This document shows positions 9,017 to 64,000 of a stretch of DNA of 64,000 nucleotides, one piece after another. Position 1 is the stretch's first letter. The number at the start of each line of letters is the position of its first letter. This DNA is from Anaerolineales bacterium (GTDB lineage Bacteria; Chloroflexota; Anaerolineae; 4572-78; J111): the NCBI GenBank assembly GCA_015075185.1, contig JABTUW010000004.1, positions 1,144,761-1,208,760 of the forward strand, written 5' to 3'. The notes beneath the pieces are model-generated. The model did no database searches, was not told the origin of the DNA, and saw nothing but the letters and a program-made list of their open reading frames with translations. A program made the translations under genes and the position numbers.

Positions 9017-9019
9017 ACT

Positions 9020-28620: not shown

Positions 28621-28623
28621 ATT

Positions 28624-29873: not shown

Positions 29874-29929
29874 TTGACAAGTAAGTTAATAGTAGTTTAT
29901 ACTAGAACTAGTAGTAAGTCTTAGAACTA
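29874..29929 (+). promoter_or_regulatory. Internal promoter with repeat operator upstream of the TrmB-like regulator
   Basis: TTGACA (29874-29879), 18 bp, TATACT (29898-29903). Direct repeats TAGAACTA at 29903 and 29922, with inverted TAGTAGTT/AACTACTA flanks. Confidence 0.45.
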
Positions 29930-29943
29930 CTATAGGAGGATTG

Positions 29944-30747: not shown

Positions 30748-30760
30748 CGGAGCCAGAAAT

Positions 30761-31894: not shown

Positions 31895-31939
31895 TATTCT
31901 TGGAGGAACAGCAATTTAAGGGGGGTAGGAGTTTATGAC

Positions 31940-33064: not shown

Positions 33065-33071
33065 TGTATCC

Positions 33072-34037: not shown

Positions 34038-34112
34038 GGGGTGTTGCGGTCCGCATCTTCTGTGAGCCTACGCACCATGCAACACGTAAGATGAATTTTA
34101 CAGGTATAAGTT

Positions 34113-35078: not shown

Positions 35079-35169
35079 AAGATAGAAAGTGGCAAAGTAA
35101 AAGCTGACAAGTGCAAATAATGCTATTTGCTACCCTGCTACCTGCTACTTGTCTTGGAGGTAAGTTATT

Positions 35170-36629: not shown

Positions 36630-36721
36630 TTATGATAGGAGTCAGGAGTAACGAGTAGGGGCAGGAAGCAATTCCTTACTCCTTACTCCGTACTCCCTAC
36701 TTCCTACAAATGAGGTGGACT

Positions 36722-50404: not shown

Positions 50405-53400
50405 ATGGACGTTATTTATCGTCTCCGCCTGCTGGGGATGATGCAAGTTGAGAAGAAGGGTGTACTACTGCGCGATTTTGAATCGCGCAAGGCGCTGGCC
50501 CTCCTCGGCTACCTGGCACGACAAGACCAGCCTGTTTCGCGCAGCCACCTGGCCGGCCTTTTTTGGGGTGATAAAGAGGAAGCGCGCGGACGGCGCAATC
50601 TCAGCCGAGAATTGAGCCAGCTTTCAGCCCTGCTTCCCGGCTGCTTCCAGGCCGACTACCACACCATCCAGTTTCTACCGCCGGACACGTTCTGGGTAGA
50701 TGTCCACATCTTTGCCAAATTGGTGAAAAGTGGTCTTGGCAAAAGCGCGTCCAAATCATCCCTGTCCAAAACCGGGCCACATTCACAAATGCCCAAAACT
50801 GCCACCGATTGGTTTCCGGCACACCTTGCCGCCGATATCCAGGTGGAGTTACTGGCCGAGGCCGTCGCTCTGTACTGCGGCGACTTTATGACCGGCTTTT
50901 TTCTGGACGATTGTCCTGAATTTGAAACGTGGCTGCTGCGCGAGCAAGAAGGCTGGCGGCGGCAGGTCACAGAGCTGCTGGAAAGACTGCTTGTTTATTA
51001 CGCCCGGTCCAACCAGGATGACCTGGCCCTAACCCAGGCCCGGCGCTGGCTGGAATTGGAACCCTGGCGCGAACGCGCCCATCGCTACCTGATGGTTCTG
51101 TTGGCCCGCCAGGATGAGCGCAGCGCCGCCCTGGCCCAGTATGAAATCTGCCGCCGCGCCCTGGCCGAGGAACTGGCGGTAGAGCCTTCGGCGGCGATGG
51201 TAACATTGTATGAACAGATTCGCTCAGGAGAATTGAGCAGGGAGGCAGAGGAGCAGGGGAGCGCAGGGGAAGTTGTTAGTGCATCCCTGCACCCTGGTGA
51301 CCCCCTCCCCTCCCCCTCACCGGTTGCTTTGCATAAAGTTCCGACCCCCTCCACGCCTTTTATTGGCCGGGAAGAGGAATTGGCCCAAATTGCCGCGCAT
51401 TTAAACGACCCGGCTGTCCGCTTGCTGACCCTGATCGGCCCTGGCGGTATTGGTAAAACCCGCCTGGCCATTCAGTCCACCTGGCAGGCAATCCAGGCGG
51501 ACACCGGGCTGTTTGCAGATGGCGTCTACTTCATTCCCCTGGACTCGCTCAGCTCAGCCGAATTTCTCGTTGCTACCCTGGCCGACGTGTTGAACTTTTC
51601 TTTTTACAGCGGGGCTAATCCGGCTAACCAACTCCTCGACTATCTGCGGGAAAAGCGGCTGCTTTTGGTGCTTGACAATTTTGAGCATCTCCTGGCGGGG
51701 GTCGGCCTGCTGAGCGATATTCTCCGGCAGGTCCCTCAGGTCAAGATTCTGGCTGTATCGCGCGAACGTCTGAATTTGCAGGAGGAATATTTGCTGCCGA
51801 TCCAGGGGTTGAAAGTACCCGAACCCCAGCCCAAGCTGAGTTGGCAGCGGGCCAAGGCCCCGGCGCTGGAGGCGTACAGCGCGGTGCAGCTCTTTCTGCA
51901 GCGCGCCCAAACCGTCAACCCTGGCTATATCCTTTCGGAAGCGGAAACGCCCTGCGTGGTCCACGTCTGCCGCCTGACCGAAGGGACGCCGCTGGCCATT
52001 GAACTGGCCGCGGCCTGGCTGCGGCTGCTCTCTTGCCAGGAAATCGCCCAGGAAATTGAGCAAAATCTCGATTTTCTGACCACTTCACTGCGCAATATCC
52101 CCGAACGGCAGCGCAGCCTGCGGGCCGTGTTTGACTATTCCTGGCGGCTCTTATCGGCGGAAGAGCAGCGGGTTTTCCGGCAGTTGGCCGTGTTTTGGGG
52201 TGGGTTTCAGCTTGAGGCGGCCAGGCAAGTCGTCGGCGCTGCCCTACCGCTGCTGCTGGCCCTGATGGACAAGTCGCTGCTGCGCCGAACCGAGACGGGA
52301 CGTTATACCCGGCACCTGCTCCTGTGGCAGTACGCCGCCGAAAAGCTGGACGAGACGCCCCAGGAAAAAGAAGAAGTTCAAGCCTTACACGGCCAGTACT
52401 ACGCGGCGTTTCTGTATGGCAAAGAGCAATTACTGACCGGGGGCCAACAAAAAGAGGCGTTAGCCGAGATCAATATCGAGATTGAGAATGTCCGAGCCGC
52501 TTGGCGCTGGGCCGTTGCTCACGGCGACCTCGCCACTATCGAGCCAGCCCTGGAAAGCCTGTTCCATTTTTACGACATCCGCAGTTGGTTTCAGGAAGGC
52601 GCTGAGTCTTTCGGCTGGGCAGCGACGAGTTTGAGAGACGAGACGCAGGGAAACGAGGAAACGAGGGGCGGAGAAGCGGAAGAACTCAAGGGAACTGAGG
52701 GGAACTCAGGGGAACTCGGGGAAGCCGGAGAAAGCGATAATCGTAAATCCAAAATCCAAAATCCAAAATCCAAAATTGTCTTGGGCAAGCTGTTGGCGCG
52801 GCAGGGCTGGTTTACGTTCCAACTTGGCCAGCATGAGGCGGCCAAGGCGCTGCTGCACGAGAGTTTGGGCATCCTCCGTAGTCTTGATTCCGCAGCCCGA
52901 GGGGAAACAATCTTTCCGCTAAATTATCTGGGGGCGGTACACCGGCATCTGGGCGAGTATGAACTCGCCCGGCAGTTGTGCCAGGAGAGTATGGTCCTTT
53001 GCCGAGAAATGGGAGACACGCTGGGTTTGAGTATTGCTCTCAACATTCTAGGCCAGGTGGCTTACCTAAAAGGGGATTACAGCCGATCCCGGCAGTTATG
53101 CCAGGAGAGTCTGGCCTTGAAGCAAGGGATTGGCGACCGGCGGGGTATGACCTTCTCCCTCAATAATCTGGGACAAGTGGCTTATGCCCTGGGCGAGTAT
53201 CCCGAAGCCAAAGCATTTTTTGAAGAAAGCCTGACGATTTGCCAGGAAATCGGCGACCGGCGCGGGATTGCCCTCTGCCTCAGTTACCTGGGCGATGTGG
53301 TGCAAATGATGGCCGAATACCAGGGTGCCAAACAATTATATCAAGAAAGCCTGTCTATTTTTAAAGAGATTGGCAATCAATGGGGCGCTATTTCCGCCCG

Positions 53401-53761
53401 CACCAAGCTGGGTTACGTGACCAGTCTCGACGATATTCAAACCGCCAGGGACTATTTCAGTGAGGCCCTCAAGGTGGCGCTCAACATCCAGGCGATTCCG
53501 GGTGCGCTGGATGCCCTGGTAGGGTTGGCTTCCCTGCTGATAAAAACGGGTGGCGCGGAAAGAGAGCAAGCCCTGGAGATTCTGGCTTTAGCCCTCAGCC
53601 ATCCAGCCAGCAGCCGCGATAATCAAGACCGGGCGGCGCGTCTATTGGCCGAGGTAGAACCTCAGTTTTCAGCAGCGACGGTTAAAGCCGTTCGAACCAG
53701 AGGGCAGGTTAATACACTGGAGACGGTAGTAAGAGCGGTATTGAGCAAAGAGAGAAGTTGA
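50405..53761 (+). CDS. SARP/AfsR-like regulator: OmpR-type wHTH + BTAD + NB-ARC (STAND) ATPase + TPR array
   Basis: 1118 aa. wHTH/BTAD part: RLLGMMQVEKKG...ESRKALALLGYLA..., ...ERAHRYLMVLLARQDERSAALAQYEICRRAL..ELAVEPS. P-loop LIGPGGIGKTRLA and Walker B LLVLDNFEH. At least 6 C-terminal TPR_12-like repeats. Confidence 0.85.
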   Translation: MDVIYRLRLLGMMQVEKKGVLLRDFESRKALALLGYLARQDQPVSRSHLAGLFWGDKEEARGRRNLSRELSQLSALLPGCFQADYHTIQFLPPDTFWVDVHIFAKLVKSGLGKSASKSSLSKTGPHSQMPKTATDWFPAHLAADIQVELLAEAVALYCGDFMTGFFLDDCPEFETWLLREQEGWRRQVTELLERLLVYYARSNQDDLALTQARRWLELEPWRERAHRYLMVLLARQDERSAALAQYEICRRALAEELAVEPSAAMVTLYEQIRSGELSREAEEQGSAGEVVSASLHPGDPLPSPSPVALHKVPTPSTPFIGREEELAQIAAHLNDPAVRLLTLIGPGGIGKTRLAIQSTWQAIQADTGLFADGVYFIPLDSLSSAEFLVATLADVLNFSFYSGANPANQLLDYLREKRLLLVLDNFEHLLAGVGLLSDILRQVPQVKILAVSRERLNLQEEYLLPIQGLKVPEPQPKLSWQRAKAPALEAYSAVQLFLQRAQTVNPGYILSEAETPCVVHVCRLTEGTPLAIELAAAWLRLLSCQEIAQEIEQNLDFLTTSLRNIPERQRSLRAVFDYSWRLLSAEEQRVFRQLAVFWGGFQLEAARQVVGAALPLLLALMDKSLLRRTETGRYTRHLLLWQYAAEKLDETPQEKEEVQALHGQYYAAFLYGKEQLLTGGQQKEALAEINIEIENVRAAWRWAVAHGDLATIEPALESLFHFYDIRSWFQEGAESFGWAATSLRDETQGNEETRGGEAEELKGTEGNSGELGEAGESDNRKSKIQNPKSKIVLGKLLARQGWFTFQLGQHEAAKALLHESLGILRSLDSAARGETIFPLNYLGAVHRHLGEYELARQLCQESMVLCREMGDTLGLSIALNILGQVAYLKGDYSRSRQLCQESLALKQGIGDRRGMTFSLNNLGQVAYALGEYPEAKAFFEESLTICQEIGDRRGIALCLSYLGDVVQMMAEYQGAKQLYQESLSIFKEIGNQWGAISARTKLGYVTSLDDIQTARDYFSEALKVALNIQAIPGALDALVGLASLLIKTGGAEREQALEILALALSHPASSRDNQDRAARLLAEVEPQFSAATVKAVRTRGQVNTLETVVRAVLSKERS
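52745..52775 (+). repeat. In-frame heptanucleotide tandem repeat (AAATCCA x4) inside the regulator gene
   Basis: AAATCCAAAATCCAAAATCCAAAATCCAAAA. Preceded by stuttered words GGAAACGAGGAAACGAGG and GGGAACTGAGGGGAACTCAGGGGAACTCGGGG (52640-52720). Confidence 0.9.
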
Positions 53762-53827: not shown

Positions 53828-53855
53828 TTGCATGCACCATGAACCATGTTATAAT
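53828..53855 (+). promoter_or_regulatory. sigma70-type promoter of the RiPP operon
   Basis: TTGCAT (53828-53833), 16 bp, TGT-TATAAT (extended -10, hexamer 50-55). Implies a ~140-nt leader before the AAAGGAGG RBS and ATG at 54003. Confidence 0.55.
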
Positions 53856-54002
53856 CCCGCGTCAGGAGGAGCAGGCCGAATCGAGGATCATTATCCTTGA
53901 AGCTCCACTTCCCCACCATTTTCATTATTCCATTTCACAACATCAAAACCATACTGGTCTATTCGCCAGGTAAGAGTTTAATTCGTTAAAGGAGGCATTG
54001 TC

Positions 54003-54251
54003 ATGGCAACACCGATCACCGATAAGGAATGGGCGCAGATACTGGTCCACGCCTGGACTGACGAGGCGTTTAGGAAGAAGCTTGAAAAGAGTCCGACCGC
54101 AGCGCTCAAAGAGGCAAAAAAGAAATTTGGCTTCAAATACGATGTTTTTGTCAATATCCCTGACCCACCGGCAGACTTGACCCAAGAACAACTCCATGCC
54201 TTTGCCCACGGGATGTCCCTGTCCTCACCTAAAAGTTGTTCCTACAGCTAA
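54003..54251 (+). CDS. NHLP-family (nitrile hydratase-like leader) RiPP precursor peptide
   Basis: 82 aa. Leader KEWAQILVHAWTDEAFRKKLEKSPTAALKEA...LTQEQLHAFAHG matches the NHLP pattern (W.DE.F...L...P..AL..., ...L.AVAGG). The Ser/Cys-rich tail is MSLSSPKSCSYS. Confidence 0.85.
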   Translation: MATPITDKEWAQILVHAWTDEAFRKKLEKSPTAALKEAKKKFGFKYDVFVNIPDPPADLTQEQLHAFAHGMSLSSPKSCSYS

Positions 54252-54305
54252 ATAGAAAGCGATCCTCAGGATCAGCTTAACCTGCCGTCTCTAAAACTGG
54301 CAACA

Positions 54306-56558
54306 ATGACCCAACGGCCGCACTTTAAGCCCTATTTTCGGTGTGAAATCATACCGACTGAGGGTATTTTTTTACTTTCCGAAAAAAAACAGTTCTTGCT
54401 GCAAGGGGCAGCCTACCTTAAGCTGGCGCCGTTGCTTACCGGCCAATATACCATTGACGAAATCATGGCTGAACTTAACGGTCAGCTTTCCCCGGCAGAA
54501 GTGTTCTATGCCCTGGAGATGCTGCGGCGTGAGGGGTACATTGTTGATTCGGCCCCATCCCTGCCCTCGGAGCAGGCCGCCTTCTGGGAGATGCTGGGGG
54601 TAGCTGCGGAGCACGCGGCCAGGCAGTTACAGCAGAGGACAGTTTCCCTGATCGCCTTGGGCCAAGTTGACCCTGCTCCTCTGAAAGCGATGCTCGAAAG
54701 TGCTGGGGTCGGCTGTGTTGACAACGGCGCACTGGGCGTGGTCTTGACTGACGATTATTTGCAGCCTGGTTTGGAGGCCTTCAATCGAGCGGCCTTGCTG
54801 CATCATCGGCCGTGGCTGCTGGTCAAACCGGTTGGAGTAGAGGTGTGGATCGGCCCTGTCTTTATCCCCGGACAAACCGGGTGTTGGGCATGTCTGGCCG
54901 ACCGTCTGCAAGGGCAGCGCAAAGTCGAAAGTTATCTGGAGAGAAAGAAAAGCCTTCCCGGTCCGCTGGTTACCTCTCTGGCTGTTCTGCCGTCAACCCT
55001 GCAAACAGCCCTGGGACTTGCCGCTACCGAAATTGCAAAATGGGTGGTCCTTGAACAGAACGAAGCGCTTACGGGCCGGATCATTGCCCTGGATACCCTT
55101 TCGCTCGAAATGAAAACCCATCTTCTTACCCGGCGTCCCCAGTGCCCCCACTGCGGAAACCCGAAGCTGGTTTCGAGGCAACAATCAGCCTCACTTAAGC
55201 TGCAAAGCCAACAGAAACTCTATACCAGCGATGGCGGACATCGTCGTTGCTCACCTGTGGAGACTTTCCAGCGTCTCGCGCATCACCTTAGCCCAATCAC
55301 CGGCATCGTCGGGAGTCTCCACCCCATCACCCTGGAAGGGGACAAGAACGGTTTGATACCCGGCTATATTGCCGACCACAATTTTGCCCTGACCAATAAC
55401 AATCTGGACACCCTGCGGGAAAATCTGCGCGCCCAATCCGGCGGCAAAGGGAAACAGGACATTCAAGCCAAAGTGAGCGCGCTGGGCGAATCCATTGAGC
55501 GGTATTCAGGGGTCTTTCAGGGTGACGAGGCCCGGATCCGGGCCAGCTTCAAAGAGTTGGGAGTCGCCGCCATTCATCCCAATGCCTGTATGCTTTTCAG
55601 CGAACGCCAATTGGCGAAGCAAGCGCAGACTGCCAATGGCTCTCCATTCAGGTGGGTTCCAACCCGCTTTGATGAGACCAGAGAAATTGAGTGGAGTCCC
55701 GTTTGGTCTTTAATCTCTGGAGAGACGCGCTATGTGCCAACAGCTTACTGCTACTACGGTTATTCCCGGATATATCAGACCAGCTTCACTCGAGCCGACT
55801 CGAATGGCTGCGCAGCCGGTAACACTAAAGAAGAGGCGATTCTACAGGGTTTCATGGAGTTGGTTGAACGGGACAGCGTGGCTTTGTGGTGGTACAATCG
55901 CCTCAAGAAACCGGCTGTGGATCTGGCCAGTTTTGACGAACCATATTTTCAGCAACTGCCAGCCTATTATAAAACGTTGCAGCGCGACCTCTGGGTCCTT
56001 GACCTGACGAGCGATTTGAATATTCCCACCTTCGCCGCTATCTCACGCCGCACTTCCCACAAGACTGAAGATATTATTTTTGGTTTTGGCGCTCACTTCG
56101 ATGCCCAACTGGCTATACTCCGTGCCCTGACCGAACTCAATCAGTCGCTTCCTTCAGTCGTTGCAGCTCAACCGGCTAAAGAAAATCACCGCTACCTGAA
56201 CCCCGACGCGTTCGCCTGGTGGCAGGCGGCGACCCTTGAGAATCAGCCTTACCTGACCCCCGACGGAACCCTGGCCTCAAAAGTTCAGGCCGATTATCCC
56301 CAGAGTTGGGAGGATGATCTCCATCTTGATGTTATAAATTGTGTGCGGATTGCCCAAGATAAAGGCCTGGAAACGTTGGTCTTGGACCAAACCCGGCCAG
56401 ACCTGGGACTCCATGTGGTGAAGGTGATTGTCCCCGGTCTGCGGCATTACTGGGCCAGATTTGGTCCCGGCCGCCTGTATGATATTCCGGTTCAAATGGG
56501 GTACCTGAGTGAACCCTTGAGCGAGGACCTGTTGAACCCTCATGTTGTTTACTTCTAA
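54306..56558 (+). CDS. Fused TOMM cyclodehydratase (E1/ThiF-like leader-binding domain + YcaO)
   Basis: 750 aa. N-terminal winged-helix/RRE-like region (LAPLLTGQYTIDEIMAEL), Zn-Cys pairs CWAC and CPHC, and a YcaO core with GGKGKQDIQAKVSALGESIERYSG. Confidence 0.9.
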   Translation: MTQRPHFKPYFRCEIIPTEGIFLLSEKKQFLLQGAAYLKLAPLLTGQYTIDEIMAELNGQLSPAEVFYALEMLRREGYIVDSAPSLPSEQAAFWEMLGVAAEHAARQLQQRTVSLIALGQVDPAPLKAMLESAGVGCVDNGALGVVLTDDYLQPGLEAFNRAALLHHRPWLLVKPVGVEVWIGPVFIPGQTGCWACLADRLQGQRKVESYLERKKSLPGPLVTSLAVLPSTLQTALGLAATEIAKWVVLEQNEALTGRIIALDTLSLEMKTHLLTRRPQCPHCGNPKLVSRQQSASLKLQSQQKLYTSDGGHRRCSPVETFQRLAHHLSPITGIVGSLHPITLEGDKNGLIPGYIADHNFALTNNNLDTLRENLRAQSGGKGKQDIQAKVSALGESIERYSGVFQGDEARIRASFKELGVAAIHPNACMLFSERQLAKQAQTANGSPFRWVPTRFDETREIEWSPVWSLISGETRYVPTAYCYYGYSRIYQTSFTRADSNGCAAGNTKEEAILQGFMELVERDSVALWWYNRLKKPAVDLASFDEPYFQQLPAYYKTLQRDLWVLDLTSDLNIPTFAAISRRTSHKTEDIIFGFGAHFDAQLAILRALTELNQSLPSVVAAQPAKENHRYLNPDAFAWWQAATLENQPYLTPDGTLASKVQADYPQSWEDDLHLDVINCVRIAQDKGLETLVLDQTRPDLGLHVVKVIVPGLRHYWARFGPGRLYDIPVQMGYLSEPLSEDLLNPHVVYF

Positions 56559-56608
56559 TCGTTCCACTATCATTTTTTGCCAGTTGGGTGGGATGAGGAG
56601 ACCTCCCA

Positions 56609-58033
56609 ATGAATAGTTTTGATTTATTGACCCAGGACTTTGTTTTATCGTTTAAGGAGGGCATCTCTCTGGTTGAACAAGCAGACGGGAGCGCCGTCCT
56701 GGAGTCACCTGGGGCGAATTTGCCGCTGGGGCAAGCTTCAAAGGGCATGAGGGCAGCGCTGCGGCTACTCTCGACTCAGGGCGCTATAGAAAAGGAACTG
56801 GTAGACCTGGCCGGACAGCATGACGGGAGCGCCGGCTTGCCCAAGATGCTCTACTACCTGCAACGTTTTACCCAATCCGGTCTGATTTGTCACACCGTCA
56901 CTTCAAACGGAAGCAAATTAGCGACGATTGTCCCGACCTCGCCCATCTATCAATTCAGACTCGTTGAGCCTGCCCTCCATGAACCGTACAGCCTGTCACG
57001 CTTTGCTTATCTGCATCAAAACGGTGGACAATTCGTCCTGGAATCGCCCTTGGCGCAGGCCAAAATAGTGCTGCACTGTTGGCAAGCCACAGCCATGCTG
57101 CATGGCCTGGCGACATCCCGGACTTTGACCGAGTTGGGTAAGGATTTTCAGGATATAACCGACGCCTCCATTTCTCTGTTTGTGAGTTTGCTGCTGGGGT
57201 GCGATATGGTACAGAGGGCTGGAAAAGAAGAGCCGGAAGCGCTGGCTCAATGGGATTTTCACGACCTGCTTTTCCATTCAAGAAGCCGGCTGGGCCGATA
57301 CACCGGCCCCTATGGCGCTACCTATCGTTTTCGAGACAAGACTCAGCCCCTGCCTGTGGTTAAACCACTGATGTCAGAAGAAACGATTAGTTTGTACAAG
57401 CCCGACCTGGATACCCTCAAAAAAGATGATCCATCCTTCACCTGTGTCCTGGAAGAAAGGCAATCTATGCGCAAACAGGATGGCGAACGGCCCATCACGC
57501 TTGAACAATTAGGCGAGTTTCTCTATCGCACGGCGCGCATCAGGGCCTTGCATCAGGCAGAACAGGGTTTGTATGAGTACAGCAGCAGACCCTACCCCAA
57601 CGGCGGAGCTTGTTATGAATTGGAACTCTACGTTGCAGCCAGGGCTTGTACCGGACTTAGTCAGGGTCTCTACCATTATGACCCGCGTGAGCATCAACTT
57701 TGCAAGCTGGCTGGCCGCGCCGACGCAGTTAACATTCTCCTGCAGGAGGCCTCTTATGCCACCGCCGAACAGAGCAGGCCCCAGGTTTTAATCATCCTGA
57801 CAGCCCGTTTTCACCGAGTGACCTGGAAATATGAAGCTATGGCCTACGCCCTGATCTTGAAGAATGTCGGTGTGCTCTACCAAACCATGTACCTTGTCGC
57901 CACCGCGATGGGACTGGCCGCTTGCGCCCTGGGCGGCGGAAACTCGGATCTATTTGCCGCCGCTGCCGGCACCGATTATTTCGCCGAGACGTCCGTTGGT
58001 GAATTTATTTTAGGGACCAAGGCCGGGCGGTAG
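56609..58033 (+). CDS. SagB-type FMN-dependent dehydrogenase (azoline oxidase)
   Basis: 474 aa with a C-terminal nitroreductase-like domain (RPYPNGGACYELELYV...LKNVGVLYQTMYLVATAMGLAACALG) typical of SagB-family enzymes next to YcaO. Confidence 0.85.
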   Translation: MNSFDLLTQDFVLSFKEGISLVEQADGSAVLESPGANLPLGQASKGMRAALRLLSTQGAIEKELVDLAGQHDGSAGLPKMLYYLQRFTQSGLICHTVTSNGSKLATIVPTSPIYQFRLVEPALHEPYSLSRFAYLHQNGGQFVLESPLAQAKIVLHCWQATAMLHGLATSRTLTELGKDFQDITDASISLFVSLLLGCDMVQRAGKEEPEALAQWDFHDLLFHSRSRLGRYTGPYGATYRFRDKTQPLPVVKPLMSEETISLYKPDLDTLKKDDPSFTCVLEERQSMRKQDGERPITLEQLGEFLYRTARIRALHQAEQGLYEYSSRPYPNGGACYELELYVAARACTGLSQGLYHYDPREHQLCKLAGRADAVNILLQEASYATAEQSRPQVLIILTARFHRVTWKYEAMAYALILKNVGVLYQTMYLVATAMGLAACALGGGNSDLFAAAAGTDYFAETSVGEFILGTKAGR

Positions 58034-58125
58034 CCAAGATCGAGATTGCACACAATCCATCGGTTTTCGGAGGGTGAAAGTGTACTTTTTTACTCCGGTT
58101 TTAGGTTGATAGGAGGAGTTCGAGC

Positions 58126-58806
58126 GTGGAAAACCAATTGCAGGTTGACTTATTGAATGAGCAACTCGATCAGTTTCAGGAACAGGGCTACCTCAACCTG
58201 GGCCGGATCACCTCTGACGCAGAGATCGAATCGCTGAAAGAGGTCTGCGCTCAGATCGTCGAGCGAAAAACAGGTTATACTTTGGCAGAACTGGCCCAGA
58301 TTAGCCGCTTTAAACCTCAACCAGCGCCCCTAACAGTCAGCGCGCCGAAAGAAATGTTTCCTGCTCTCAAGAACACGACCTACTATCGAAATGCGCTCAG
58401 GGTAGTAGCCAGACTACTCGAGACCGAAGAAACTAACCTCATCAGCGGCTGGCGGCTATTTATCAAACCGCCCGGCTGCGGCGGGACCCCTTGGCACCAG
58501 GACGCCGCTTATCGCCCCCCGCCCTATCGCAGCGCCACCATCTGGCTGCCGCTGGACCCGATGATAAAGGAGAGCGGTTGTTTACAATTTATTGAGGGGT
58601 CTCATCGTCAGGGGATACAGCCCTATCAAGCTAACGATGGGTTCCTGATCACCGAAAATGTTAATGAGGCACAGGCTGTCGCCTGTCCCCTCTTGCCGGG
58701 CGAAGCAACGGTTCATCACTGTTTTGTGCTGCATTACGCCGGGCCTAATCAGACCGACCAATTACGCCGGGTTTTGGTCACTATTTTTCAAGCAACGGGA
58801 AGGTAG
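58126..58806 (+). CDS. PhyH-family Fe(II)/2-oxoglutarate-dependent dioxygenase
   Basis: 226 aa with a GTG start. Has WHQDAAY (HxD) and a distal TVHHCFVLH His, plus phytanoyl-CoA dioxygenase-like N-terminal motifs (GYLNLGRI). Confidence 0.7.
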   Translation: MENQLQVDLLNEQLDQFQEQGYLNLGRITSDAEIESLKEVCAQIVERKTGYTLAELAQISRFKPQPAPLTVSAPKEMFPALKNTTYYRNALRVVARLLETEETNLISGWRLFIKPPGCGGTPWHQDAAYRPPPYRSATIWLPLDPMIKESGCLQFIEGSHRQGIQPYQANDGFLITENVNEAQAVACPLLPGEATVHHCFVLHYAGPNQTDQLRRVLVTIFQATGR

Positions 58807-58812
58807 GGATTT

Positions 58813-60591
58813 ATGACTCATATTCATGCAGCCAACTCGCAGCCAGCGCCCCTCATTGATATCGCCATTATCGGGGGGGGTGTTTCTGGCGCTTATACGG
58901 CTTACCGGTTAATGAAATCAGACCCGGCGGCAAGCCCGGTGCTCAAGCGCCTGTTACAAATCAGCGGCAAAGACCGGCTGGACATCGGATTATTCGAGCT
59001 AAGTAACCGCATCGGAGGCCGGCTTTGGTCATACCATCTGCCCGGAATGACCAGCTTGCCGGCTGAATTGGGGGGTCAGGGCTTTGCCCAGTACATGCAA
59101 AATGTTTACGGCTTAGCCACCCAAGAACTGAGGCTTGAGCTTTCTGCGTCTTCGAGCTACAACAAGCGCTACTTTCAGTATCTCCGAGGGCATCGTTTTA
59201 ACTATAAAGATAATTTACTTCGCGGCCCACGCAAGAAAAAGTATTACCCCGGTGTTATTCCCTATTTTCTGAAAAATGACGAAAAGGAGAAGGATCTGGA
59301 TGAGTTGATAGAAGAGGCAAGCCTGGCCGGCATACCAGAACAAATCAAAACAGTCATTGCTGATATAGAAGAGGCGCTGAAGCAAGGCGATCTTGGGGGG
59401 GCATTTAAGAAAAGGAAACAAGAATTGATCCCTCTCCTTCGTAATGCCAGAGTTAACGACAGCGGGCCGGCCTTTTCCCAAAGACCGCTCTACGAGTTGG
59501 GGTTTTGGAATGTCCTGGAGGCCAGGCTCAGCAGCGAGGCCTACCAGCTTATTTCGGATTCATCTTATGATTATTCGGATTTCCGCAACTTCAACTTCTA
59601 CGACTCTATTGTGAGTAATTTAGACGCAGATTTTTGCTTCGATCTGAACCCCCAACCTTTTGTGCAACTCAAAAATGGTTACCAGGAACTGCCGAAAACG
59701 CTGGTCAAGCATTTTCGAGACGAGGGCGGTTCGGTGCATCTACAAACTATGTTGCGCTGTCTGCGCCTCGAATATCATAACGGCGAACCCTTGATTGCCC
59801 TGGATATTGGCCCAACCGGAGTACCCCTTGACTCCACGCTGTACGCCCGTTATGTGGTCCTGGCGCTGCCGCAGCGGGCGCTGGAATTACTTGATCCGGC
59901 CAGTGTTATCTTCCAAAATCCTCGTTTCAAGACGGAGATGAATACTGTTACCCCGGCATTAGCAGGCAAAATCTTCTTAGCCTATGACCAGCCCTGGTGG
60001 GAAGCCCTGGAATACGGACCGGGCAAGGTTCCCAATGAGCAGATTACATGTGGCTTTTCCATCACCGATTTACCGATCCGGGTTTGTTACTACATTGGGA
60101 AGCAGGAGGATGGAAAATCACTCTTGCTGGCCTCTTTGAACGATGACGTTATTAGCCCCTTTTGGGATGGATTTTTACATGCGTCTCGCATGGGAGTTCA
60201 TAATGCCCCCTATGGGGGTAACCCCAATAGTGGATTTAACCTGTTTGCTCCAGAAGACATGGTCAGCGCGGTTCAACGGCAACTGGTCCAAATGCATGGG
60301 CTTAAACCCGGAAAGTTTCCCGAACCCTATGCCGCTATTTATCACTATTGGGGCGACGATCCTTTTGGCGGGGGCTGGCATGATTGGAACCCCCACGTGC
60401 GAAGTTGGGAAGTTATCCCCAGCATTCGCCAGCCCATCCCCGGTGTGAACATTTTTCTGTGTGGCGAAGCCTATTCCGCCTCTCAGGGCTGGGTTGAAGG
60501 CGCCCTCAACACCGCTGAAATGGTTCTGGAAACTCATTTTGGTCTGCCCCGGCCCGATTGGGTCCATCCAGAGTATGATTTTGGCCCTTGA
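58813..60591 (+). CDS. Flavin-dependent amine oxidase family protein
   Basis: 592 aa. N-terminal IAIIGGGVSGAYTAYRL (GxGxxG) and C-terminal FLCGEAYSASQGWVEGALNTAE, typical of FAD amine oxidases. Only 6 nt separate it from the dioxygenase gene. Confidence 0.75.
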   Translation: MTHIHAANSQPAPLIDIAIIGGGVSGAYTAYRLMKSDPAASPVLKRLLQISGKDRLDIGLFELSNRIGGRLWSYHLPGMTSLPAELGGQGFAQYMQNVYGLATQELRLELSASSSYNKRYFQYLRGHRFNYKDNLLRGPRKKKYYPGVIPYFLKNDEKEKDLDELIEEASLAGIPEQIKTVIADIEEALKQGDLGGAFKKRKQELIPLLRNARVNDSGPAFSQRPLYELGFWNVLEARLSSEAYQLISDSSYDYSDFRNFNFYDSIVSNLDADFCFDLNPQPFVQLKNGYQELPKTLVKHFRDEGGSVHLQTMLRCLRLEYHNGEPLIALDIGPTGVPLDSTLYARYVVLALPQRALELLDPASVIFQNPRFKTEMNTVTPALAGKIFLAYDQPWWEALEYGPGKVPNEQITCGFSITDLPIRVCYYIGKQEDGKSLLLASLNDDVISPFWDGFLHASRMGVHNAPYGGNPNSGFNLFAPEDMVSAVQRQLVQMHGLKPGKFPEPYAAIYHYWGDDPFGGGWHDWNPHVRSWEVIPSIRQPIPGVNIFLCGEAYSASQGWVEGALNTAEMVLETHFGLPRPDWVHPEYDFGP

Positions 60592-60677
60592 CCCAGGTGT
60601 TGCAGCGCAAGAGGAATTCAAAATTTTATGGGGTTCTAATGGTTAGCGATTTGATTGAAAGTAAAGGACGGGCATAA

Positions 60678-63600
60678 ATGGCAGTCTCTCTATCGGGCTA
60701 TCAAGTTAAGGAAACGATTCACGAAAGTAGTAGCTCGCTGGTTTACCGGGGACTCTCCAGGACAAACAACCAATCTGTTATCCTCAAAATGCTGAAACAG
60801 GCCTACCCTTCCCCGGAAAAGATCGCCTGGTTCAAGCGAGAATTTGAAAGAACCCAGAACTTGAACCCTTCACCCGATACGGGAAAGGCTCTGCCAGGTG
60901 TCGTGGAAGCTTACAGCCTGGAAAGTGACCAACAGCGCTGGATCATGGTGCTGGAAGATTTTGGCGGCGACTCCCTCGACCGGTACCTCCGGCGCAAACC
61001 CTTCACCGTCACTGAGTTTCTACCGCTGGCCCTTGAGATAGCCGAAATTTTGGGGCAAATCCATCAACGACAAATCATCCATAAAGATATTAACCCTTCC
61101 AACATTGTTTTGCACCCGACGAGCCGCCAGATCAAAATTATTGACTTTGGCATTTCCACAACCCTCTCCCGTGAAAACCCGACCCTCCGCAATCCTAACG
61201 TTTTGGAAGGAACGTTGGCTTACATCTCCCCGGAACAAACAGGACGGATGAATCGGGCTTTAGACTATCGCACCGATTTTTACTCTCTGGGCGTCACCTT
61301 TTATCAGATGTTGACGGGTGAATTACCCTTTCCATCCTCCGATGCGCTGGCGTTAGTCCATGCCCATCTTGCCAAACAGCCCATCCCGCCCCATGAACTT
61401 AATGCCGCTATTCCCCTGCCGCTCTCCCAAATTGTTCTCAAGCTGATGGCTAAAAACGCCGAAGATCGCTACCAGTCGGTGATCGGCCTTAAGGCGGATT
61501 TAGCGGAATGTCTGCGCCAGTGGCAGACCAGCGGGCTGATTGAGCCTTTTTCTCTGGGCCAGCATGATATTGCCGATCACTTCCAAATTCCCCAAAAACT
61601 GTATGGCCGAGAACAGGAAATCGAGCAACTCTTATCTGCTTTTGAGCGTGTTGGCCAGGGCGCCTGTGAAATGATGCTGGTCTCCGGTTATGCCGGCGTT
61701 GGCAAATCAGCCTTGATCCAGGAAGTCTACCGGCCCATCACCCGCCAACGCGGCTACTTCATCGCCGGCAAGTTCGACCAATTGCAGCGAAATATTCCCT
61801 ATGCCTCTCTCGTTCGCGCCTTTCAGTCTTTAATTCAGCAGCTTTTGGCGGGGAATGAGGCAGAAATCACCGAGTGGCGCACCAAAATGTTAGACGCTCT
61901 AGGCTCAAACGCCCAGGTCATTATCGAAATAATTCCCCAGGTGGAACTGATTGTTGGCCCTCAACCGGCAGCGCCTGACCTGCCCCCGTCCGAAGCTCAG
62001 AACCGCTTCAAGCTGGTCTTTCAAAACTTTATCCGGGTATTTACCCGGCCAGAACACCCGCTCGTGCTCTTTCTGGACGATTTGCAATGGGCCGACATTG
62101 CTTCGCTGGATTTGCTCAAATTGCTACTGACCGCGCCGGACAGCCAATACCTGTTTGTCATCGGGGCATATCGGGATAATGAAGTCGGCGAGGCTCACCC
62201 GCTGGGATTGACCCTGGCCGATATCCAACAGGCCGGCAGACCCACCGCTCATATTTCTCTCAAGCCCTTAGACTTTCCCCATGTTAATCAGTTCATGGCC
62301 GATATGCTCCACACCTCACCAGAGAGGGTCACACCTCTGGCCGAGTTAGTGACGGCCAAAACCGCCGGCAACCCCTTTTTCATGAATGAGTTTTTGAAAT
62401 CACTCTATACCGAGTCGCTGCTGGTATTTGAGCATACCCCCGATAAAGAAGTCCAGGGGAGCGGCTGGCGCTGGAACCTGGCGGAAATTCAAGCGCGGGA
62501 CATGACCAGTAATGTCGTCGAACTGATGGCCGGCAAGATTCAGAGATTGAGCCAGGAGACGCAGCAGGTTTTGAAGCTGGCTGCTTGCATCGGCAACCAA
62601 TTCGATCTTCACACTCTGGCCCTTGTCCATGAAAAATTGCCCGGCCAGACAGCCGCCGATTTATGGCAGGCTATTACGGAGGGCTTAGTTTTGCCTCTGA
62701 ATGATGTCTACAAAGTCATGGACCTGGAGGTCGAGGGGTTGGCTGATGAAGTAACGGTTGACTATAGGTTTGCTCACGACCGTATCCAGCAGGCGGCCTA
62801 TTATCTTCTTTCGGACGAGGATAAAGAAGCCGTTCACCGCCAGGTAGGGCAACTCATCCTGCGGCATACTCCCCCGGAAAAGCGCGAGCAGAAGATCTTT
62901 GAAATTGTTGACCAACTGAATTTGGGTCTCAAACACATCAGCAGCCAGACAGAACGGCTGGAATTGGCAGAATTAAACCTGCTGGCCGGTCAAAAAGCAA
63001 AGGGGACAGCGGCCTATCAAGCCGCCCTCAATTACCTGCGGATGGGTATCGGCTTGCTTGGAGAAGATAGCTGGTCGCAACAGTATGAGCTGAGTTTGGC
63101 GCTCTATATCGAAGCAACAGAAGCGGCCTACCTCAGCGGTGACTATGACGGAATGGAGCAGTTGAGCGGGGTCGTACTCCAACACGCCAACAGCCTCCTC
63201 GATAAGGTGAAAGTATATGAATGTCTCATCGAGGCCGGTTATGTTGCCCAGCACAGAATCATGGAAGCAATCAAGGTGGGGCTTGACGTTCTGGAACAAT
63301 TGGGGCTGAAACTACCGGACAAACCGGATTATGCGGACATTGGGCGCGCTCTTGAAGAGACCTACGAGGCTATCGCCGGCAAGGACATCGAGGAGCTCAT
63401 CAATCTGCCGGAAATGACCGACCCCTCCAAACAGGCGACGATAGCTTTGCTGATGAGGTTGTTCAGCCCGGCTTATATTGGCGCGCCGGAATTGTTTGTG
63501 CTGATTGTTCTGAGCGTCGTCAGGTTATCTGTTGAATATGGCAATACCCCTCTGTCGGCTCAGGCTTACGCCTCTTACGGGTTGATCCTCTGCGCCGTAG

Positions 63601-64000
63601 TCGGCGATATTGATGCCGGCTATCGTTTTGGCAAACTCGCTTTGAAGCTGGTTGAACAGTTCAATGCCCAGGAAATCAAAGCCAGCACTATGTTTATGGT
63701 TAATGGCTTCGTCAAACACTGGCAGGAGCCTCTCCGGGCCACGCAGCGCCCCTTGCTTGAGTCCTATCAAATTGGCCTTGAAACAGGGGCGATAGAATAT
63801 GCTGCTTTGGCAGCGTTTGTCTACACTTATCATGCCTACTGGACCGGCATGCCCCTGGCTGAGCTTGACCATGAGCTGGCCAAATATAGTGAGGCGATTG
63901 ACCAACTCAAGCAAGGCACGGTTTTGGATTTGAATAAGCAATATCGGCAAGCTGTTTTGAACTTGATGGGACAGGCAGAAAACCCGTCTCACTTAAAGGG
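60678..64000 (+). CDS. Ser/Thr protein kinase - AAA_16 (STAND-type) ATPase multidomain protein, 5' part (runs off the window)
   Basis: Read by hand; not in the ORF track because no stop is reached. Kinase motifs IIHKDINPSNIV, IIDFGIS and LAYISPEQ. P-loop VSGYAGVGKSALI and Walker B LFLDDLQWAD, then a helical-repeat region. Confidence 0.8.
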   Translation, partial: MAVSLSGYQVKETIHESSSSLVYRGLSRTNNQSVILKMLKQAYPSPEKIAWFKREFERTQNLNPSPDTGKALPGVVEAYSLESDQQRWIMVLEDFGGDSLDRYLRRKPFTVTEFLPLALEIAEILGQIHQRQIIHKDINPSNIVLHPTSRQIKIIDFGISTTLSRENPTLRNPNVLEGTLAYISPEQTGRMNRALDYRTDFYSLGVTFYQMLTGELPFPSSDALALVHAHLAKQPIPPHELNAAIPLPLSQIVLKLMAKNAEDRYQSVIGLKADLAECLRQWQTSGLIEPFSLGQHDIADHFQIPQKLYGREQEIEQLLSAFERVGQGACEMMLVSGYAGVGKSALIQEVYRPITRQRGYFIAGKFDQLQRNIPYASLVRAFQSLIQQLLAGNEAEITEWRTKMLDALGSNAQVIIEIIPQVELIVGPQPAAPDLPPSEAQNRFKLVFQNFIRVFTRPEHPLVLFLDDLQWADIASLDLLKLLLTAPDSQYLFVIGAYRDNEVGEAHPLGLTLADIQQAGRPTAHISLKPLDFPHVNQFMADMLHTSPERVTPLAELVTAKTAGNPFFMNEFLKSLYTESLLVFEHTPDKEVQGSGWRWNLAEIQARDMTSNVVELMAGKIQRLSQETQQVLKLAACIGNQFDLHTLALVHEKLPGQTAADLWQAITEGLVLPLNDVYKVMDLEVEGLADEVTVDYRFAHDRIQQAAYYLLSDEDKEAVHRQVGQLILRHTPPEKREQKIFEIVDQLNLGLKHISSQTERLELAELNLLAGQKAKGTAAYQAALNYLRMGIGLLGEDSWSQQYELSLALYIEATEAAYLSGDYDGMEQLSGVVLQHANSLLDKVKVYECLIEAGYVAQHRIMEAIKVGLDVLEQLGLKLPDKPDYADIGRALEETYEAIAGKDIEELINLPEMTDPSKQATIALLMRLFSPAYIGAPELFVLIVLSVVRLSVEYGNTPLSAQAYASYGLILCAVVGDIDAGYRFGKLALKLVEQFNAQEIKASTMFMVNGFVKHWQEPLRATQRPLLESYQIGLETGAIEYAALAAFVYTYHAYWTGMPLAELDHELAKYSEAIDQLKQGTVLDLNKQYRQAVLNLMGQAENPSHLK

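What the first reader, a model, noticed from the sequence alone, without database searches (positions are those of the whole stretch)
53828..60591. Compact NHLP-leader azole RiPP cluster with an unusual oxidative tailoring pair and no protease or exporter
One strand carries, behind a good promoter: an NHLP precursor, a fused E1-like/YcaO cyclodehydratase (750 aa), a SagB dehydrogenase, a PhyH-type Fe/2OG dioxygenase and a 592-aa flavin amine oxidase. The first three define a thiazole/oxazole-modified peptide (TOMM) pathway (established knowledge). NHLP clusters typically also carry a C39-peptidase ABC exporter that cleaves at Gly-Gly. None is present, and the precursor lacks GG. I do not know the dioxygenase plus amine oxidase combination from any characterised azole RiPP. 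The product is likely a very small, heavily modified peptide of a new subtype.
Basis: partly seen in the sequence, partly recalled or inferred. Interest (0 to 1): 0.8.

Follow-up and report, generated by a model that had tools for sequence, protein, structure and literature searches.

The report
Azole peptide cluster with peptide-type amine oxidase
A Chloroflexota genome carries a real, compact gene cluster for a small thiazole/oxazole peptide. Relatives of this cluster occur in at least five bacterial phyla and none has been characterised. They always include a giant signalling kinase and an amino-acid-oxidase relative that has lost the arginine needed to bind free amino acids.

Summary
Six co-directional genes lie at 54003-64000: an 82-aa precursor, a cyanobactin-type fused heterocyclase, a ThcOx-type azoline oxidase, a PhyH dioxygenase, a flavin amine oxidase (AO) and a very large Ser/Thr kinase.

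The host is an Anaerolineales MAG. The same gene set (PhyH in only some lineages) recurs in Chloroflexota, Alphaproteobacteria (including cultured Rhizobium sp. RAF56), Acidobacteriota and cyanobacteria. No protease or exporter is conserved with it.

The precursors form an unannotated family of at least 150 clusters. Each has an NHLP-like leader ending in Gly and an 11-16-aa core, mostly ending in Cys.

New here: the AO is closest to L-arginine and L-lysine oxidases, but the carboxylate-binding Arg is Gly90. Among homologues with enough flank, 20 of 24 Arg-less AOs sit beside the azole genes, against 0 of 75 Arg-containing ones. This argues the AO oxidises a peptide-bound amine, not a free amino acid.

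Closest known relatives are the NHLP-Burk azole-peptide (TOMM) clusters with a large kinase, described in 2010 and of unknown product. The window fails their curated thresholds. Verdict: a new variant of a known kind, with untested chemistry and a testable new tailoring step.

The parts
50405..53761 (+). BTAD/NACHT-AAA/TPR (SARP/AfsR-like) regulator, 1118 aa. It may be the pathway regulator, but it is conserved only in the closest relatives.
   Evidence: Pfam BTAD, NACHT, AAA_16 and TPR_12. Present upstream of the same cluster in L001/L002. Absent from L003 and from the other phyla.
53828..53855 (+). Promoter-like TTGCAT-16 nt-TATAAT, 148 nt upstream of the precursor ATG.
   Evidence: Read from the sequence. 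Both elements are identical in L001 apart from the last base of the -35 hexamer. Not reported by the consensus scan, whose counts equal chance. Weak evidence only.
54003..54251 (+). Precursor peptide, 82 aa. The NHLP-like leader ends ...PADLTQEQLHAFAHG. The predicted 12-aa core is MSLSSPKSCSYS.
   Evidence: RBS AAAGGAGG. Sub-threshold NHLP hits. Scores 107 bits against the family profile built here, and it is the only copy in the window. The leader/core boundary is inferred from the invariant Gly in alignment A2. The seven sequences of its 90% cluster keep PKSCSYS and vary core positions 1 and 3-5.
54306..56558 (+). Cyanobactin-type fused heterocyclase (wHTH/RRE + E1-like + YcaO), 750 aa.
   Evidence: TIGR03604 284 bits and TIGR03882 170 bits. 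LynD 775, MusD 765 and TruD 738 bits over the full length.
56609..58033 (+). ThcOx/CyaGox-type FMN azoline oxidase (HTH_57 + ThcOx + nitroreductase domains), 474 aa.
   Evidence: Pfam. TIGR03605 178 bits. CyaGox 304 bits.
58126..58806 (+). PhyH-family Fe(II)/2-oxoglutarate dioxygenase, 226 aa, GTG start. WHQD and a distal His are present.
   Evidence: PF05721 96 bits. Best solved relatives are EvdO2 (117 bits) and MysH (52 bits). Conserved next to the ThcOx-type oxidase and AO genes in at least 8 lineages.
58813..60591 (+). Flavin amine oxidase derived from bacterial L-amino-acid oxidases, 592 aa. It lacks the carboxylate-binding Arg (Gly90 in GGQGF) and keeps the conserved Lys386.
   Evidence: PF01593. 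L-arginine oxidase 246 bits, AncLAAO 213 bits and AncLLysO 192 bits. Alignments to AROD GGMRW and AncLLysO GGMRY. Association statistics.
60678..64000 (+). N-terminal ~1100 aa of a giant Ser/Thr kinase (Pkinase-AAA_16/STAND-...); it runs off the window. The full-length orthologue is 1803 aa and ends in GAF plus a guanylate/adenylate cyclase domain.
   Evidence: Translation. L001 orthologue scores 2324 bits, with Pfam Pkinase, AAA_16, GAF and Guanylate_cyc. Orthologues scoring 900-1330 bits sit in the same clusters in other phyla.

Best explanation
This is a functional biosynthetic cluster for a short linear azole-containing ribosomal peptide. It belongs to a widespread, uncharacterised family related to the NHLP-Burk azole-peptide (TOMM) clusters.

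Proposed steps:
1. The 82-aa precursor docks its NHLP-like leader on the RRE of the cyanobactin-type heterocyclase. The leader segment P-x-DL-T-x-EQL resembles the cyanobactin and NHLP recognition segment.
2. The heterocyclase cyclodehydrates Cys9, and probably some flanking Ser, in the core MSLSSPKSCSYS.
3. The ThcOx-type FMN oxidase aromatises the azolines to thiazole or oxazole.
4. The PhyH dioxygenase hydroxylates, or otherwise oxidises, a core side chain.
5. The AO is an L-Arg/L-Lys-oxidase relative whose carboxylate-binding arginine is replaced by glycine. It oxidises a primary amine that is part of the peptide, not a free amino acid. The most likely target is the alpha-amine of the new N-terminus after a non-dedicated protease removes the leader. 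That reaction gives an alpha-keto-acyl N-terminus plus NH3 and H2O2.
6. The co-conserved giant kinase (kinase-STAND-GAF-cyclase or His-kinase) is most likely a sensor or regulator coupled to the product, not a tailoring enzyme.

Shown here: gene identities, conservation of the set across phyla, and loss of the Arg specifically in azole-gene context.

Inferred: every chemical step, the AO substrate and the kinase role.

Sub-confidences:
- Genuine azole-peptide cluster: 0.9.
- AO and PhyH tailor the peptide: 0.65.
- AO acts on the N-terminal alpha-amine: 0.35.
- Kinase is a sensor or regulator: 0.5.

The overall confidence of 0.55 refers to the model as a whole, excluding the exact AO target.
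For: Enzyme identity. The curated heterocyclase and dehydrogenase models pass their cutoffs. LynD, MusD and TruD score 738-775 bits and CyaGox 304 bits.

Operon-like layout. Gaps between genes are 6-92 nt, the precursor has a strong RBS, and all genes are on one strand.

Conservation.
- The same set occurs in two Anaerolineae MAGs at 91% AO identity.
- It occurs in a 50%-identity metagenome locus, L003.
- By my phmmer scan it occurs in Alphaproteobacteria (L011-L014, including Rhizobium sp. RAF56), Acidobacteriota (L016, L020, L099), Thermoanaerobaculia (L017), a Phormidium plasmid (L022) and Microcoleus (L023, L027, L034, L036, L051, L116).
- All-against-all clustering of flanking ORFs finds only precursor, YcaO, ThcOx-type oxidase, AO, kinase and PhyH shared across lineages.

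Precursor family. At least 150 clusters at 90% identity, all named 'hypothetical protein'. They share a leader ending in an invariant Gly and an 11-16-aa core, mostly ending [YF]SC, YCC, FCCC, SSC, CAC or similar.

AO evidence.
- The closest solved relatives are free-amino-acid oxidases.
- AncLLysO R76 binds the substrate carboxylate, and the R76A mutant is inactive (PMC8405998).
- That Arg (GGMR[YWFI]) aligns with window Gly90.
- Among 145 non-identical homologues, restricted to those with at least 6 kb of flank: Arg-less with azole genes 20, Arg-less without 4, Arg-containing with azole genes 0, Arg-containing without 75. Fisher p = 2.5e-17, not corrected for phylogeny.
- An NJ tree places the Arg-less, azole-linked AOs in at least two separate clades, with Arg-containing stand-alone enzymes nested in one of them.
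- The conserved Lys (AncLLysO K387) is retained as K386.
- Precedent: replacing the carboxylate-binding Arg of D-amino-acid oxidase with Gly (R283G) yields an amine oxidase (PMC11755151 abstract).

Suggestive only. Most cores begin with Lys or Arg right after the leader Gly. The two clades with such cores carry Glu or Asp at the position of AncLLysO E383, the side-chain binder. The window clade, whose core starts Met or Leu, has Ala there.

Kinase evidence. The output domain varies (cyclase in L001, His-kinase in L003) while the kinase-AAA_16-GAF part is kept. Orthologues also flank other small biosynthetic operons.
Against: - No product, mass or transcript data exist.
- No protease that would expose a free N-terminus is encoded in or conserved with the cluster. 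An amine oxidase cannot act on a leader-blocked alpha-amine.
- The Arg-loss association is partly phylogenetic. Only about 2-3 independent events are visible, and the tree has no support values.
- The Glu/Asp versus Lys/Arg covariation has exceptions. L020 has an Arg-first core with Val at that position, L011 and L014 have Thr/Asn-first cores with Glu, and L022 has a Ser-first core with Asp.
- The window core is atypical for the family. It has no basic first residue and ends SCSYS instead of Cys.
- L003 has a Cys-free, repeat-containing C-terminus.
- PhyH is absent from the cyanobacterial branch, within the flanks sampled.
- The YcaO C-terminal tail (NPHVVYF) departs from the NPxPxFF-like tail of most relatives.
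Confidence: 0.55

Rival explanations
1. The end product is not the whole core. It is a small azole-containing fragment cut from the C-terminus, in the manner of mycofactocin or PQQ. The AO then deaminates the amine exposed on that fragment. The resulting small molecule is the ligand of the neighbouring kinase's GAF domain.
For: The conserved part of the cores is the C-terminal [YF]-[SC]-C motif, or PKSCSYS in the window clade, while the rest varies. No exporter is conserved, and the AO has no signal peptide. A GAF-containing signalling protein is always present. By recollection, mycofactocin maturation uses an oxidative deaminase after peptidase release.
Against: The C-terminal residues differ among clades (YSC, YCC, FCCC, TCS, KSC, SCSYS), which is unlike a cofactor. 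No peptidase is conserved. The near-invariant basic residue at core position 1 would be left unexplained.
Confidence: 0.2
2. The AO and PhyH do not touch the peptide. They act on a free metabolite, or the AO makes H2O2 or a keto acid, and they are co-located for regulatory or ecological reasons.
For: All solved relatives of the AO oxidise free amino acids. The kinase orthologue also sits beside an Arg-containing AO with KASIII-like and ThDP enzymes and no YcaO in Microcoleus L018. So an AO-kinase link exists outside RiPP context.
Against: The carboxylate-binding Arg, essential in AncLLysO (R76A is inactive), is missing from every AO found next to the azole genes and present in every stand-alone one sampled. 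Gene order is tight and co-directional across phyla.
Confidence: 0.12
3. The giant kinase is a biosynthetic enzyme. It phosphorylates Ser or Thr of the Ser-rich core, as the kinase domains of class III/IV lanthipeptide synthetases do.
For: The core holds six Ser. The kinase domain has weak similarity to LanL and LanKC kinase domains, 81 and 33 bits. By recollection, TIGR03903 is described as a probable biosynthesis protein.
Against: No lyase or cyclase partner is present. The architecture is that of a signal transducer: STAND ATPase, GAF, and a nucleotide cyclase or His-kinase output that varies between orthologues. Orthologues accompany unrelated operons. Many family cores have few Ser or Thr.
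Confidence: 0.1

Closest known systems
NHLP-Burk TOMM clusters of Burkholderia, Delftia and Acidovorax (TIGR03795 precursors + TIGR03882/03604 fused cyclodehydratase + TIGR03903 'TOMM system kinase/cyclase fusion protein'); Haft et al. 2010, PMC2887384
   Same: Both have a nitrile-hydratase-like leader without a Gly-Gly site, a short core, a cyanobactin-like fused cyclodehydratase, a large Ser/Thr kinase with a STAND ATPase and a cyclase module next to the precursor, and no PatA/G protease. In sister clades of the window the core also ends in Cys or Cys-Cys. The product is unknown in both.
   Different: The window precursor scores 17 bits against the 41-bit cutoff, and the kinase 142 bits against 706. 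The window has a single precursor, not a tandem pair. Kinase domain order differs: kinase-AAA_16-GAF-cyclase here, against kinase, then cyclase, then the remaining regions as I recall the TIGR03903 description (AAA_16 lies at residues 549-743 of the L089 kinase). The Burkholderia example L089 shows no AO, PhyH or SagB-type gene in 26 kb.
Cyanobactin pathways (PatD/LynD/TruD/MusD heterocyclases, ThcOx/CyaGox oxidases)
   Same: The heterocyclase matches LynD at 775 bits over its full length and the oxidase matches CyaGox at 304 bits, with the same domain architectures.
   Different: There are no PatA/PatG proteases, no macrocyclase, no prenyltransferase and no PatE-type precursor. The leader is NHLP-like.
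Bacterial L-amino-acid oxidases of the AROD / AncLLysO / HTAncLAAO group
   Same: Full-length homology at 190-246 bits, the FAD-binding N-terminus, the conserved Lys and the QGWVEG motif.
   Different: The substrate-carboxylate-binding Arg (AncLLysO R76) is Gly in the window enzyme and non-Arg in all azole-linked homologues. The genomic context is a RiPP operon.
Proteusins and other NHLP-leader RiPPs with a C39-peptidase ABC exporter (TIGR03793 family)
   Same: The N-terminal leader motif (AW-D-x-F...L...P) resembles nitrile hydratase alpha. By recollection, not tested here, Fe/2OG hydroxylases occur in some of these pathways.
   Different: The window precursor falls below the TIGR03793 cutoff. 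There is no Gly-Gly site, no radical-SAM epimerase and no TIGR03796-type exporter.

Membership tests
TOMM / linear azol(in)e-containing peptide (LAP) gene cluster | YcaO cyclodehydratase with an E1-like/RRE partner | tested here: met
   TIGR03604 284 bits (cutoff 219), TIGR03882 170 bits (cutoff 37), and a wHTH domain at residues 7-79.
TOMM / linear azol(in)e-containing peptide (LAP) gene cluster | FMN-dependent SagB-type azoline dehydrogenase | tested here: met
   TIGR03605 178 bits (cutoff 78). CyaGox 304 bits.
TOMM / linear azol(in)e-containing peptide (LAP) gene cluster | Adjacent precursor with a Cys/Ser/Thr-rich core | tested here: met
   The core MSLSSPKSCSYS has 7 of 12 cyclisable residues and lies 54 nt upstream of the heterocyclase.
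TOMM / linear azol(in)e-containing peptide (LAP) gene cluster | Azol(in)e rings actually present in the product | not testable with these tools
   Needs mass spectrometry of the product.
NHLP leader peptide family (TIGR03793) | Score above the curated cutoff | tested here: not met
   26.5 bits against 50.9, with only residues 11-38 aligned. NF038399 scores 29.7 against 40.
NHLP leader peptide family (TIGR03793) | Gly-Gly (or Gly-Ala) cleavage motif with a C39-peptidase ABC exporter | tested here: not met
   The leader ends AHG-M with no GG. No C39 or TIGR03796-type gene was found in the parts of the window examined (26.7-64 kb). The only ABC genes are ABC-2/HlyD type, at least 15.6 kb away beyond a housekeeping operon.
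NHLP-Burk TOMM system (TIGR03795 + TIGR03903) | Precursor passes TIGR03795 | tested here: not met
   17.1 bits against 41. Only 4 of 11 family representatives hit it at all, at E >= 0.003.
NHLP-Burk TOMM system (TIGR03795 + TIGR03903) | Kinase passes TIGR03903 | tested here: not met
   The L001 orthologue scores 142 bits, L003 165 bits and L013 149 bits, against a 706-bit cutoff. The Burkholderia control scores 1934 bits.
NHLP-Burk TOMM system (TIGR03795 + TIGR03903) | A large Ser/Thr kinase encoded beside the precursor and a fused cyclodehydratase | tested here: met
   The kinase starts 86 nt after the AO gene, and orthologues occur in the same clusters in other phyla. This is analogy, not orthology.
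NHLP-Burk TOMM system (TIGR03795 + TIGR03903) | Tandem or fused precursor pair, one ending in Cys or Cys-Cys | tested here: not met
   The window has one precursor, ending SCSYS. Sister clades do end in Cys or Cys-Cys.
Cyanobactins | PatD-type heterocyclase | tested here: met
   LynD 775, MusD 765 and TruD 738 bits.
Cyanobactins | PatA/PatG subtilisin-like proteases and macrocyclase, with a PatE-type precursor | tested here: not met
   None among the genes flanking the cluster in the window or in L001 and L003. No protease family is shared across loci.
L-amino-acid oxidase (free amino-acid substrate) | FAD-binding fold and the conserved active-site Lys | tested here: met
   GGGVSG at residues 21-26. 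K386 is invariant in alignment A1 and aligns with AncLLysO K387.
L-amino-acid oxidase (free amino-acid substrate) | Arg that binds the substrate alpha-carboxylate (AncLLysO R76, AROD GGMRW) | tested here: not met
   The window has Gly90 (GGQGF). The R76A mutant is inactive (PMC8405998).

The most novel reading that the evidence does not exclude
The gene set defines a new RiPP class found in at least five phyla. In it, a flavoenzyme recruited from L-Arg/L-Lys oxidases carries out a modification not yet described for RiPPs: oxidative deamination of a peptide N-terminal residue. For Lys- or Arg-first cores this could produce a cyclic imine cap. The resulting small azole peptide would act as a self-produced signal, read by the co-inherited giant kinase-STAND-GAF-cyclase (or His-kinase) receptor, not as an antibiotic. 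That would make it a portable signal-synthase and receptor module.
Probability: 0.25. Interest if true: 0.85.

Novelty: new variant of a known kind. Interest (0 to 1): 0.62.

Why it matters
1. It gives a concrete, testable candidate for a new RiPP tailoring reaction. An amino-acid oxidase appears to have been repurposed for peptide-bound amines by losing its carboxylate clamp. This natural change parallels the engineered R283G switch in D-amino-acid oxidase.

2. It ties a 2010 bioinformatic curiosity, azole-peptide (TOMM) clusters that travel with a giant Ser/Thr kinase, to a much wider family. The precursor family has at least 150 clusters and is wholly unannotated. It spans Chloroflexota, Proteobacteria, Acidobacteriota and cyanobacteria.

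3. Cultured carriers exist, namely Rhizobium sp. RAF56 and several Microcoleus strains. The product, and the question of whether the kinase senses it, can therefore be addressed experimentally.

4. The cyanobactin-type heterocyclase and oxidase pair acting on a different leader class is of practical interest for peptide engineering.

Tried and rejected
- Plasmid origin: a megablast of the cluster against PLSDB found nothing.
- Close AO relatives in GTDB species genomes: a single-protein scan found none. An alignment query was needed.
- Cyanobacterial origin, suggested by the ThcOx and LynD similarity: rejected. The identical AO and precursor are recorded from an Anaerolineales MAG.
- Dehydrazoles (YcaO + LanM-like enzyme + NHLP): a different enzyme set.
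- Membership in TIGR03793, TIGR03795 and TIGR03903: all below cutoff.
- A single-sequence search with the window precursor found only its own 90% cluster.
- A sigma-70 consensus scan gave no support beyond chance.
- A dedicated protease or exporter: none found among the conserved flanking genes or in the window from 26.7 kb onward.
- Structure prediction was not run. It would only have restated the LAAO fold without giving active-site geometry.

Full report
**1. What is in the window**

The + strand between 50.4 kb and the window end carries the following genes:
- a BTAD/NACHT/TPR regulator, 50405-53761;
- an 82-aa ORF with a strong RBS, 54003-54251;
- a 750-aa fused wHTH/E1-like/YcaO protein, 54306-56558;
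- a 474-aa HTH_57/ThcOx/nitroreductase protein, 56609-58033;
- a 226-aa PhyH dioxygenase, 58126-58806;
- a 592-aa flavin amine oxidase (AO), 58813-60591.

The curated models for the cyclodehydratase (TIGR03604 and TIGR03882) and the SagB dehydrogenase (TIGR03605) all pass their cutoffs.

Translating past 60591 shows a further ORF starting at 60678. It encodes a Ser/Thr kinase and runs off the window after about 1100 residues.

**2. Whose genome, and is the set conserved?**

The AO and the precursor are identical to proteins recorded from an Anaerolineales MAG on a 1.41-Mb contig.

Two further Anaerolineae MAGs (L001, L002; AO 91% identical) have the same regulator-precursor-YcaO-oxidase-PhyH-AO order. 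That order is followed by an 1803-aa Pkinase-AAA_16-GAF-guanylate-cyclase protein.

A metagenome contig, L003, has an AO only 50% identical yet keeps precursor-YcaO-oxidase-PhyH-AO-kinase. Its kinase ends in a His-kinase module instead of a cyclase.

I then scanned GTDB species genomes and JGI metagenomes with an AO alignment. I searched all six-frame ORFs of the 170 fetched loci with the window proteins. The AO lies beside a close YcaO and ThcOx-type oxidase, usually with the kinase orthologue (900-1330 bits) and often with PhyH, in these lineages:
- Alphaproteobacteria (L011-L014, including cultured Rhizobium sp. RAF56; gene order AO-kinase-precursor-YcaO-oxidase-PhyH);
- Acidobacteriota (L016, L020, L099);
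- Thermoanaerobaculia (L017, L096);
- a Phormidium plasmid (L022);
- many Microcoleus genomes (L023, L027, L034, L036, L051, L116).

All-against-all clustering of flanking ORFs finds only these six families shared across lineages. There is no shared protease and no shared transporter.

In the window itself the upstream neighbours are nusA-infB-rbfA-truB-ribF, an EamA transporter and three hypothetical genes. An ABC-2/HlyD exporter set lies at 26.7-38.4 kb, beyond that housekeeping operon, and has no C39 domain.

**3. The precursor family**

Eleven precursors from these loci align over a leader with the pattern M..EW..I.A.AW.D..F...L..P...P..P.DL...Q.....G, followed by a short tail.

A profile search of 5.8 billion proteins returned 150 clusters. 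Every one is unnamed or labelled 'hypothetical protein'.

Their predicted cores are 11-16 residues. Most start with Lys or Arg directly after the invariant Gly (G|K-T-..., G|R-[TA]-E-G-F-P-G-G...). Most end in [YF]SC, YCC, FCCC, SSC, CAC, CCS or similar.

The window core, MSLSSPKSCSYS, is an outlier. Its 90% cluster has seven sequences that vary positions 1 and 3-5 and keep PKSCSYS.

The family matches the NHLP models only below threshold.

**4. The enzymes**

The heterocyclase is a full-length relative of the cyanobactin enzymes LynD, MusD and TruD (738-775 bits). The oxidase is a relative of CyaGox/ThcOx (304 bits).

PhyH is closest to EvdO2 and MysH. It has the HxD...H motif, read from the sequence. 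Its substrate cannot be predicted.

The AO is closest to L-arginine oxidase (8T8A/8JT7, identified through PMC11694665), to a thermostable ancestral LAAO and to the ancestral L-lysine oxidase AncLLysO.

**5. The new point: the oxidase has lost its carboxylate clamp**

In AncLLysO, R76 hydrogen-bonds the substrate's main-chain carboxyl group. R76A has no measurable activity, and the residue is described as highly conserved among LAAOs (PMC8405998).

HMMER alignments place that Arg (ELGGMRY in AncLLysO, EVGGMRW in AROD) opposite Gly90 of the window enzyme (ELGGQGF).

Across the fetched homologues, every AO next to the YcaO and oxidase genes has a non-Arg residue there (G, A, C, Y or F). Every stand-alone homologue has GGMR[YWFI].

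Counting non-identical sequences with at least 6 kb of flank gives the following table.

| AO type | Azole genes beside it | No azole genes |
|---|---|---|
| Arg-less | 20 | 4 |
| Arg-containing | 0 | 75 |

Fisher p = 2.5e-17. Of the four Arg-less exceptions, one (L083) is a pattern-matching artefact and two (L026, L120) sit beside a distant YcaO-like ORF.

This test is not phylogenetically corrected. A neighbour-joining tree without support values shows at least two separate Arg-less azole-linked clades. One of them has Arg-containing stand-alone enzymes (L004, L009, L093) nested inside it. The character has therefore changed with context more than once.

The conserved Lys (K386) and the QGWVEG motif are retained, so the enzyme is probably an active oxidase.

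There is an engineering precedent. Replacing the carboxylate-binding Arg of pig D-amino-acid oxidase with Gly turns it into an amine oxidase (PMC11755151 abstract).

My inference is that the substrate amine has no adjacent free carboxylate. In this context that points to a peptide-bound amine.

**6. Which amine?**

The simplest candidate is the alpha-amine of the residue exposed when the leader is removed after the invariant Gly.

Two observations fit this but do not prove it. First, that residue is Lys or Arg in most cores. Second, the two clades with such cores carry Glu or Asp at the position of AncLLysO E383, the side-chain binder, whereas the window clade (Met or Leu first) has Ala. Exceptions exist (L020, L011, L014, L022).

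Alternatives are cleavage after the basic residue, which would expose the conserved small residue (Thr, Ala or Ser) at position 2, or release of a small C-terminal azole fragment.

The main weakness of all these models is that no protease is encoded or conserved with the cluster.

**7. The kinase**

[quoted passage not shown] NCBI names that protein 'TOMM system kinase/cyclase fusion protein'. I confirmed this on a Burkholderia plasmid, where TIGR03903 scores 1934 bits.

The window-type kinase is not that equivalog: it scores 142-165 bits against a 706-bit cutoff, and its domain order differs.

The theme is the same, however. Orthologues of the window kinase also sit next to:
- YcaO plus an amidohydrolase on cyanobacterial plasmids;
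- an Arg-containing AO with KASIII-like and ThDP enzymes in Microcoleus.

The variable output domain, the GAF domain and the association with different small biosynthetic operons all favour a sensor or regulator role. A tailoring role is not excluded.

**8. Comparison with the known, and novelty**

The cluster works like a cyanobactin-type azole pathway grafted onto an NHLP-like leader. It is a relative of the NHLP-Burk TOMM clusters in theme, but not a member.

Cox et al. 2015 already grouped the NHLP and NHLP-Burk D proteins with the cyanobactin D proteins and noted the lack of PatA/G proteases (PMC4603692).

I found no paper characterising any product of these clusters, nor any paper linking YcaO or RiPPs with amine or amino-acid oxidases. 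The library lacks most subscription journals, so this is absence of evidence only.

I rate the finding a new variant of a known kind. The scaffold chemistry is familiar. The AO and PhyH tailoring and the size of the unannotated family are new.

**9. Limits**

- Everything about chemistry is inference.
- The loci were sampled by AO similarity. The fraction of this YcaO clade that carries an AO is therefore unknown.
- Flanks are at most 10 kb, so PhyH or the kinase may be missed in some loci.

Noticed in passing
window 26739-38350: An exporter gene set: a TetR regulator, four ABC-2 permeases, two ABC ATPases, a TrmB-type regulator and two HlyD-family proteins (one with an SH3 domain). No C39 peptidase. 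A nusA-infB-rbfA-truB-ribF operon separates it from the RiPP cluster, so a link is doubtful.
   Followed up: partly
window 46904-47827: An EamA-family transporter lies 2.6 kb upstream of the cluster's regulator. EamA genes also lie near the AO in L003 and L004. This may be coincidence, or a candidate exporter.
   Followed up: no
L003 5019-5396: The precursor of the 50%-diverged sister cluster has the same leader but a 55-aa Cys-free tail. The tail contains four LSD[EG][GD]PKP repeats and ends in PPDGS. It does not fit the short Cys-terminal core seen elsewhere.
   Followed up: no
L018 4450-14803 (Microcoleus sp. AT9_A5); also L019: An orthologue of the giant kinase (1201 bits) sits directly upstream of an Arg-containing AO. 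A KASIII-like gene follows, and a ThDP-dependent enzyme is encoded on the opposite strand. No YcaO is present. This may be a different signal-synthesis module using the same receptor type.
   Followed up: partly
L091 (Nostoc sp. MS1 plasmid), L172 (Gloeothece PCC 7424 plasmid), L173 (Calothrix PCC 6303 plasmid): Close YcaO homologues (49-50% identity) on cyanobacterial plasmids are followed by an amidohydrolase (L091, L172) and lie 1-6 kb upstream of a 5.5-6 kb gene annotated 'sensor histidine kinase' or 'AAA family ATPase'. No AO is annotated in the stretches shown, and phmmer found none in L091. The YcaO-plus-giant-kinase theme is wider than the AO subfamily.
   Followed up: partly
L090 (Thalassospira marina plasmid) 7926-18709: LanM, a 'thiocillin family RiPP' precursor, a fused YcaO (45% identity), a 2.8-kb gene annotated 'cytochrome P450' that also matches the ThcOx-type oxidase (302 bits), and an S53 peptidase. 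This is a hybrid lanthipeptide/azole cluster.
   Followed up: no
window 56538-56558 (YcaO C-terminus): The heterocyclase ends in NPHVVYF, whereas most relatives end in an NPxPxFF-like tail. The C-terminal Pro-rich tail matters for some azoline-forming YcaOs (by recollection). The effect here is unknown.
   Followed up: partly
L024 9734-13258 (Myxococcales MAG): Two tandem Arg-containing AO paralogues lie 3 kb upstream of a kinase relative (665 bits).
   Followed up: no
L092 1-5459: The closest diverged AO (55% identity, Arg-less AGF) is flanked by a PhyH gene on each side and followed by the kinase. The PhyH step appears to be duplicated in this lineage.
   Followed up: partly
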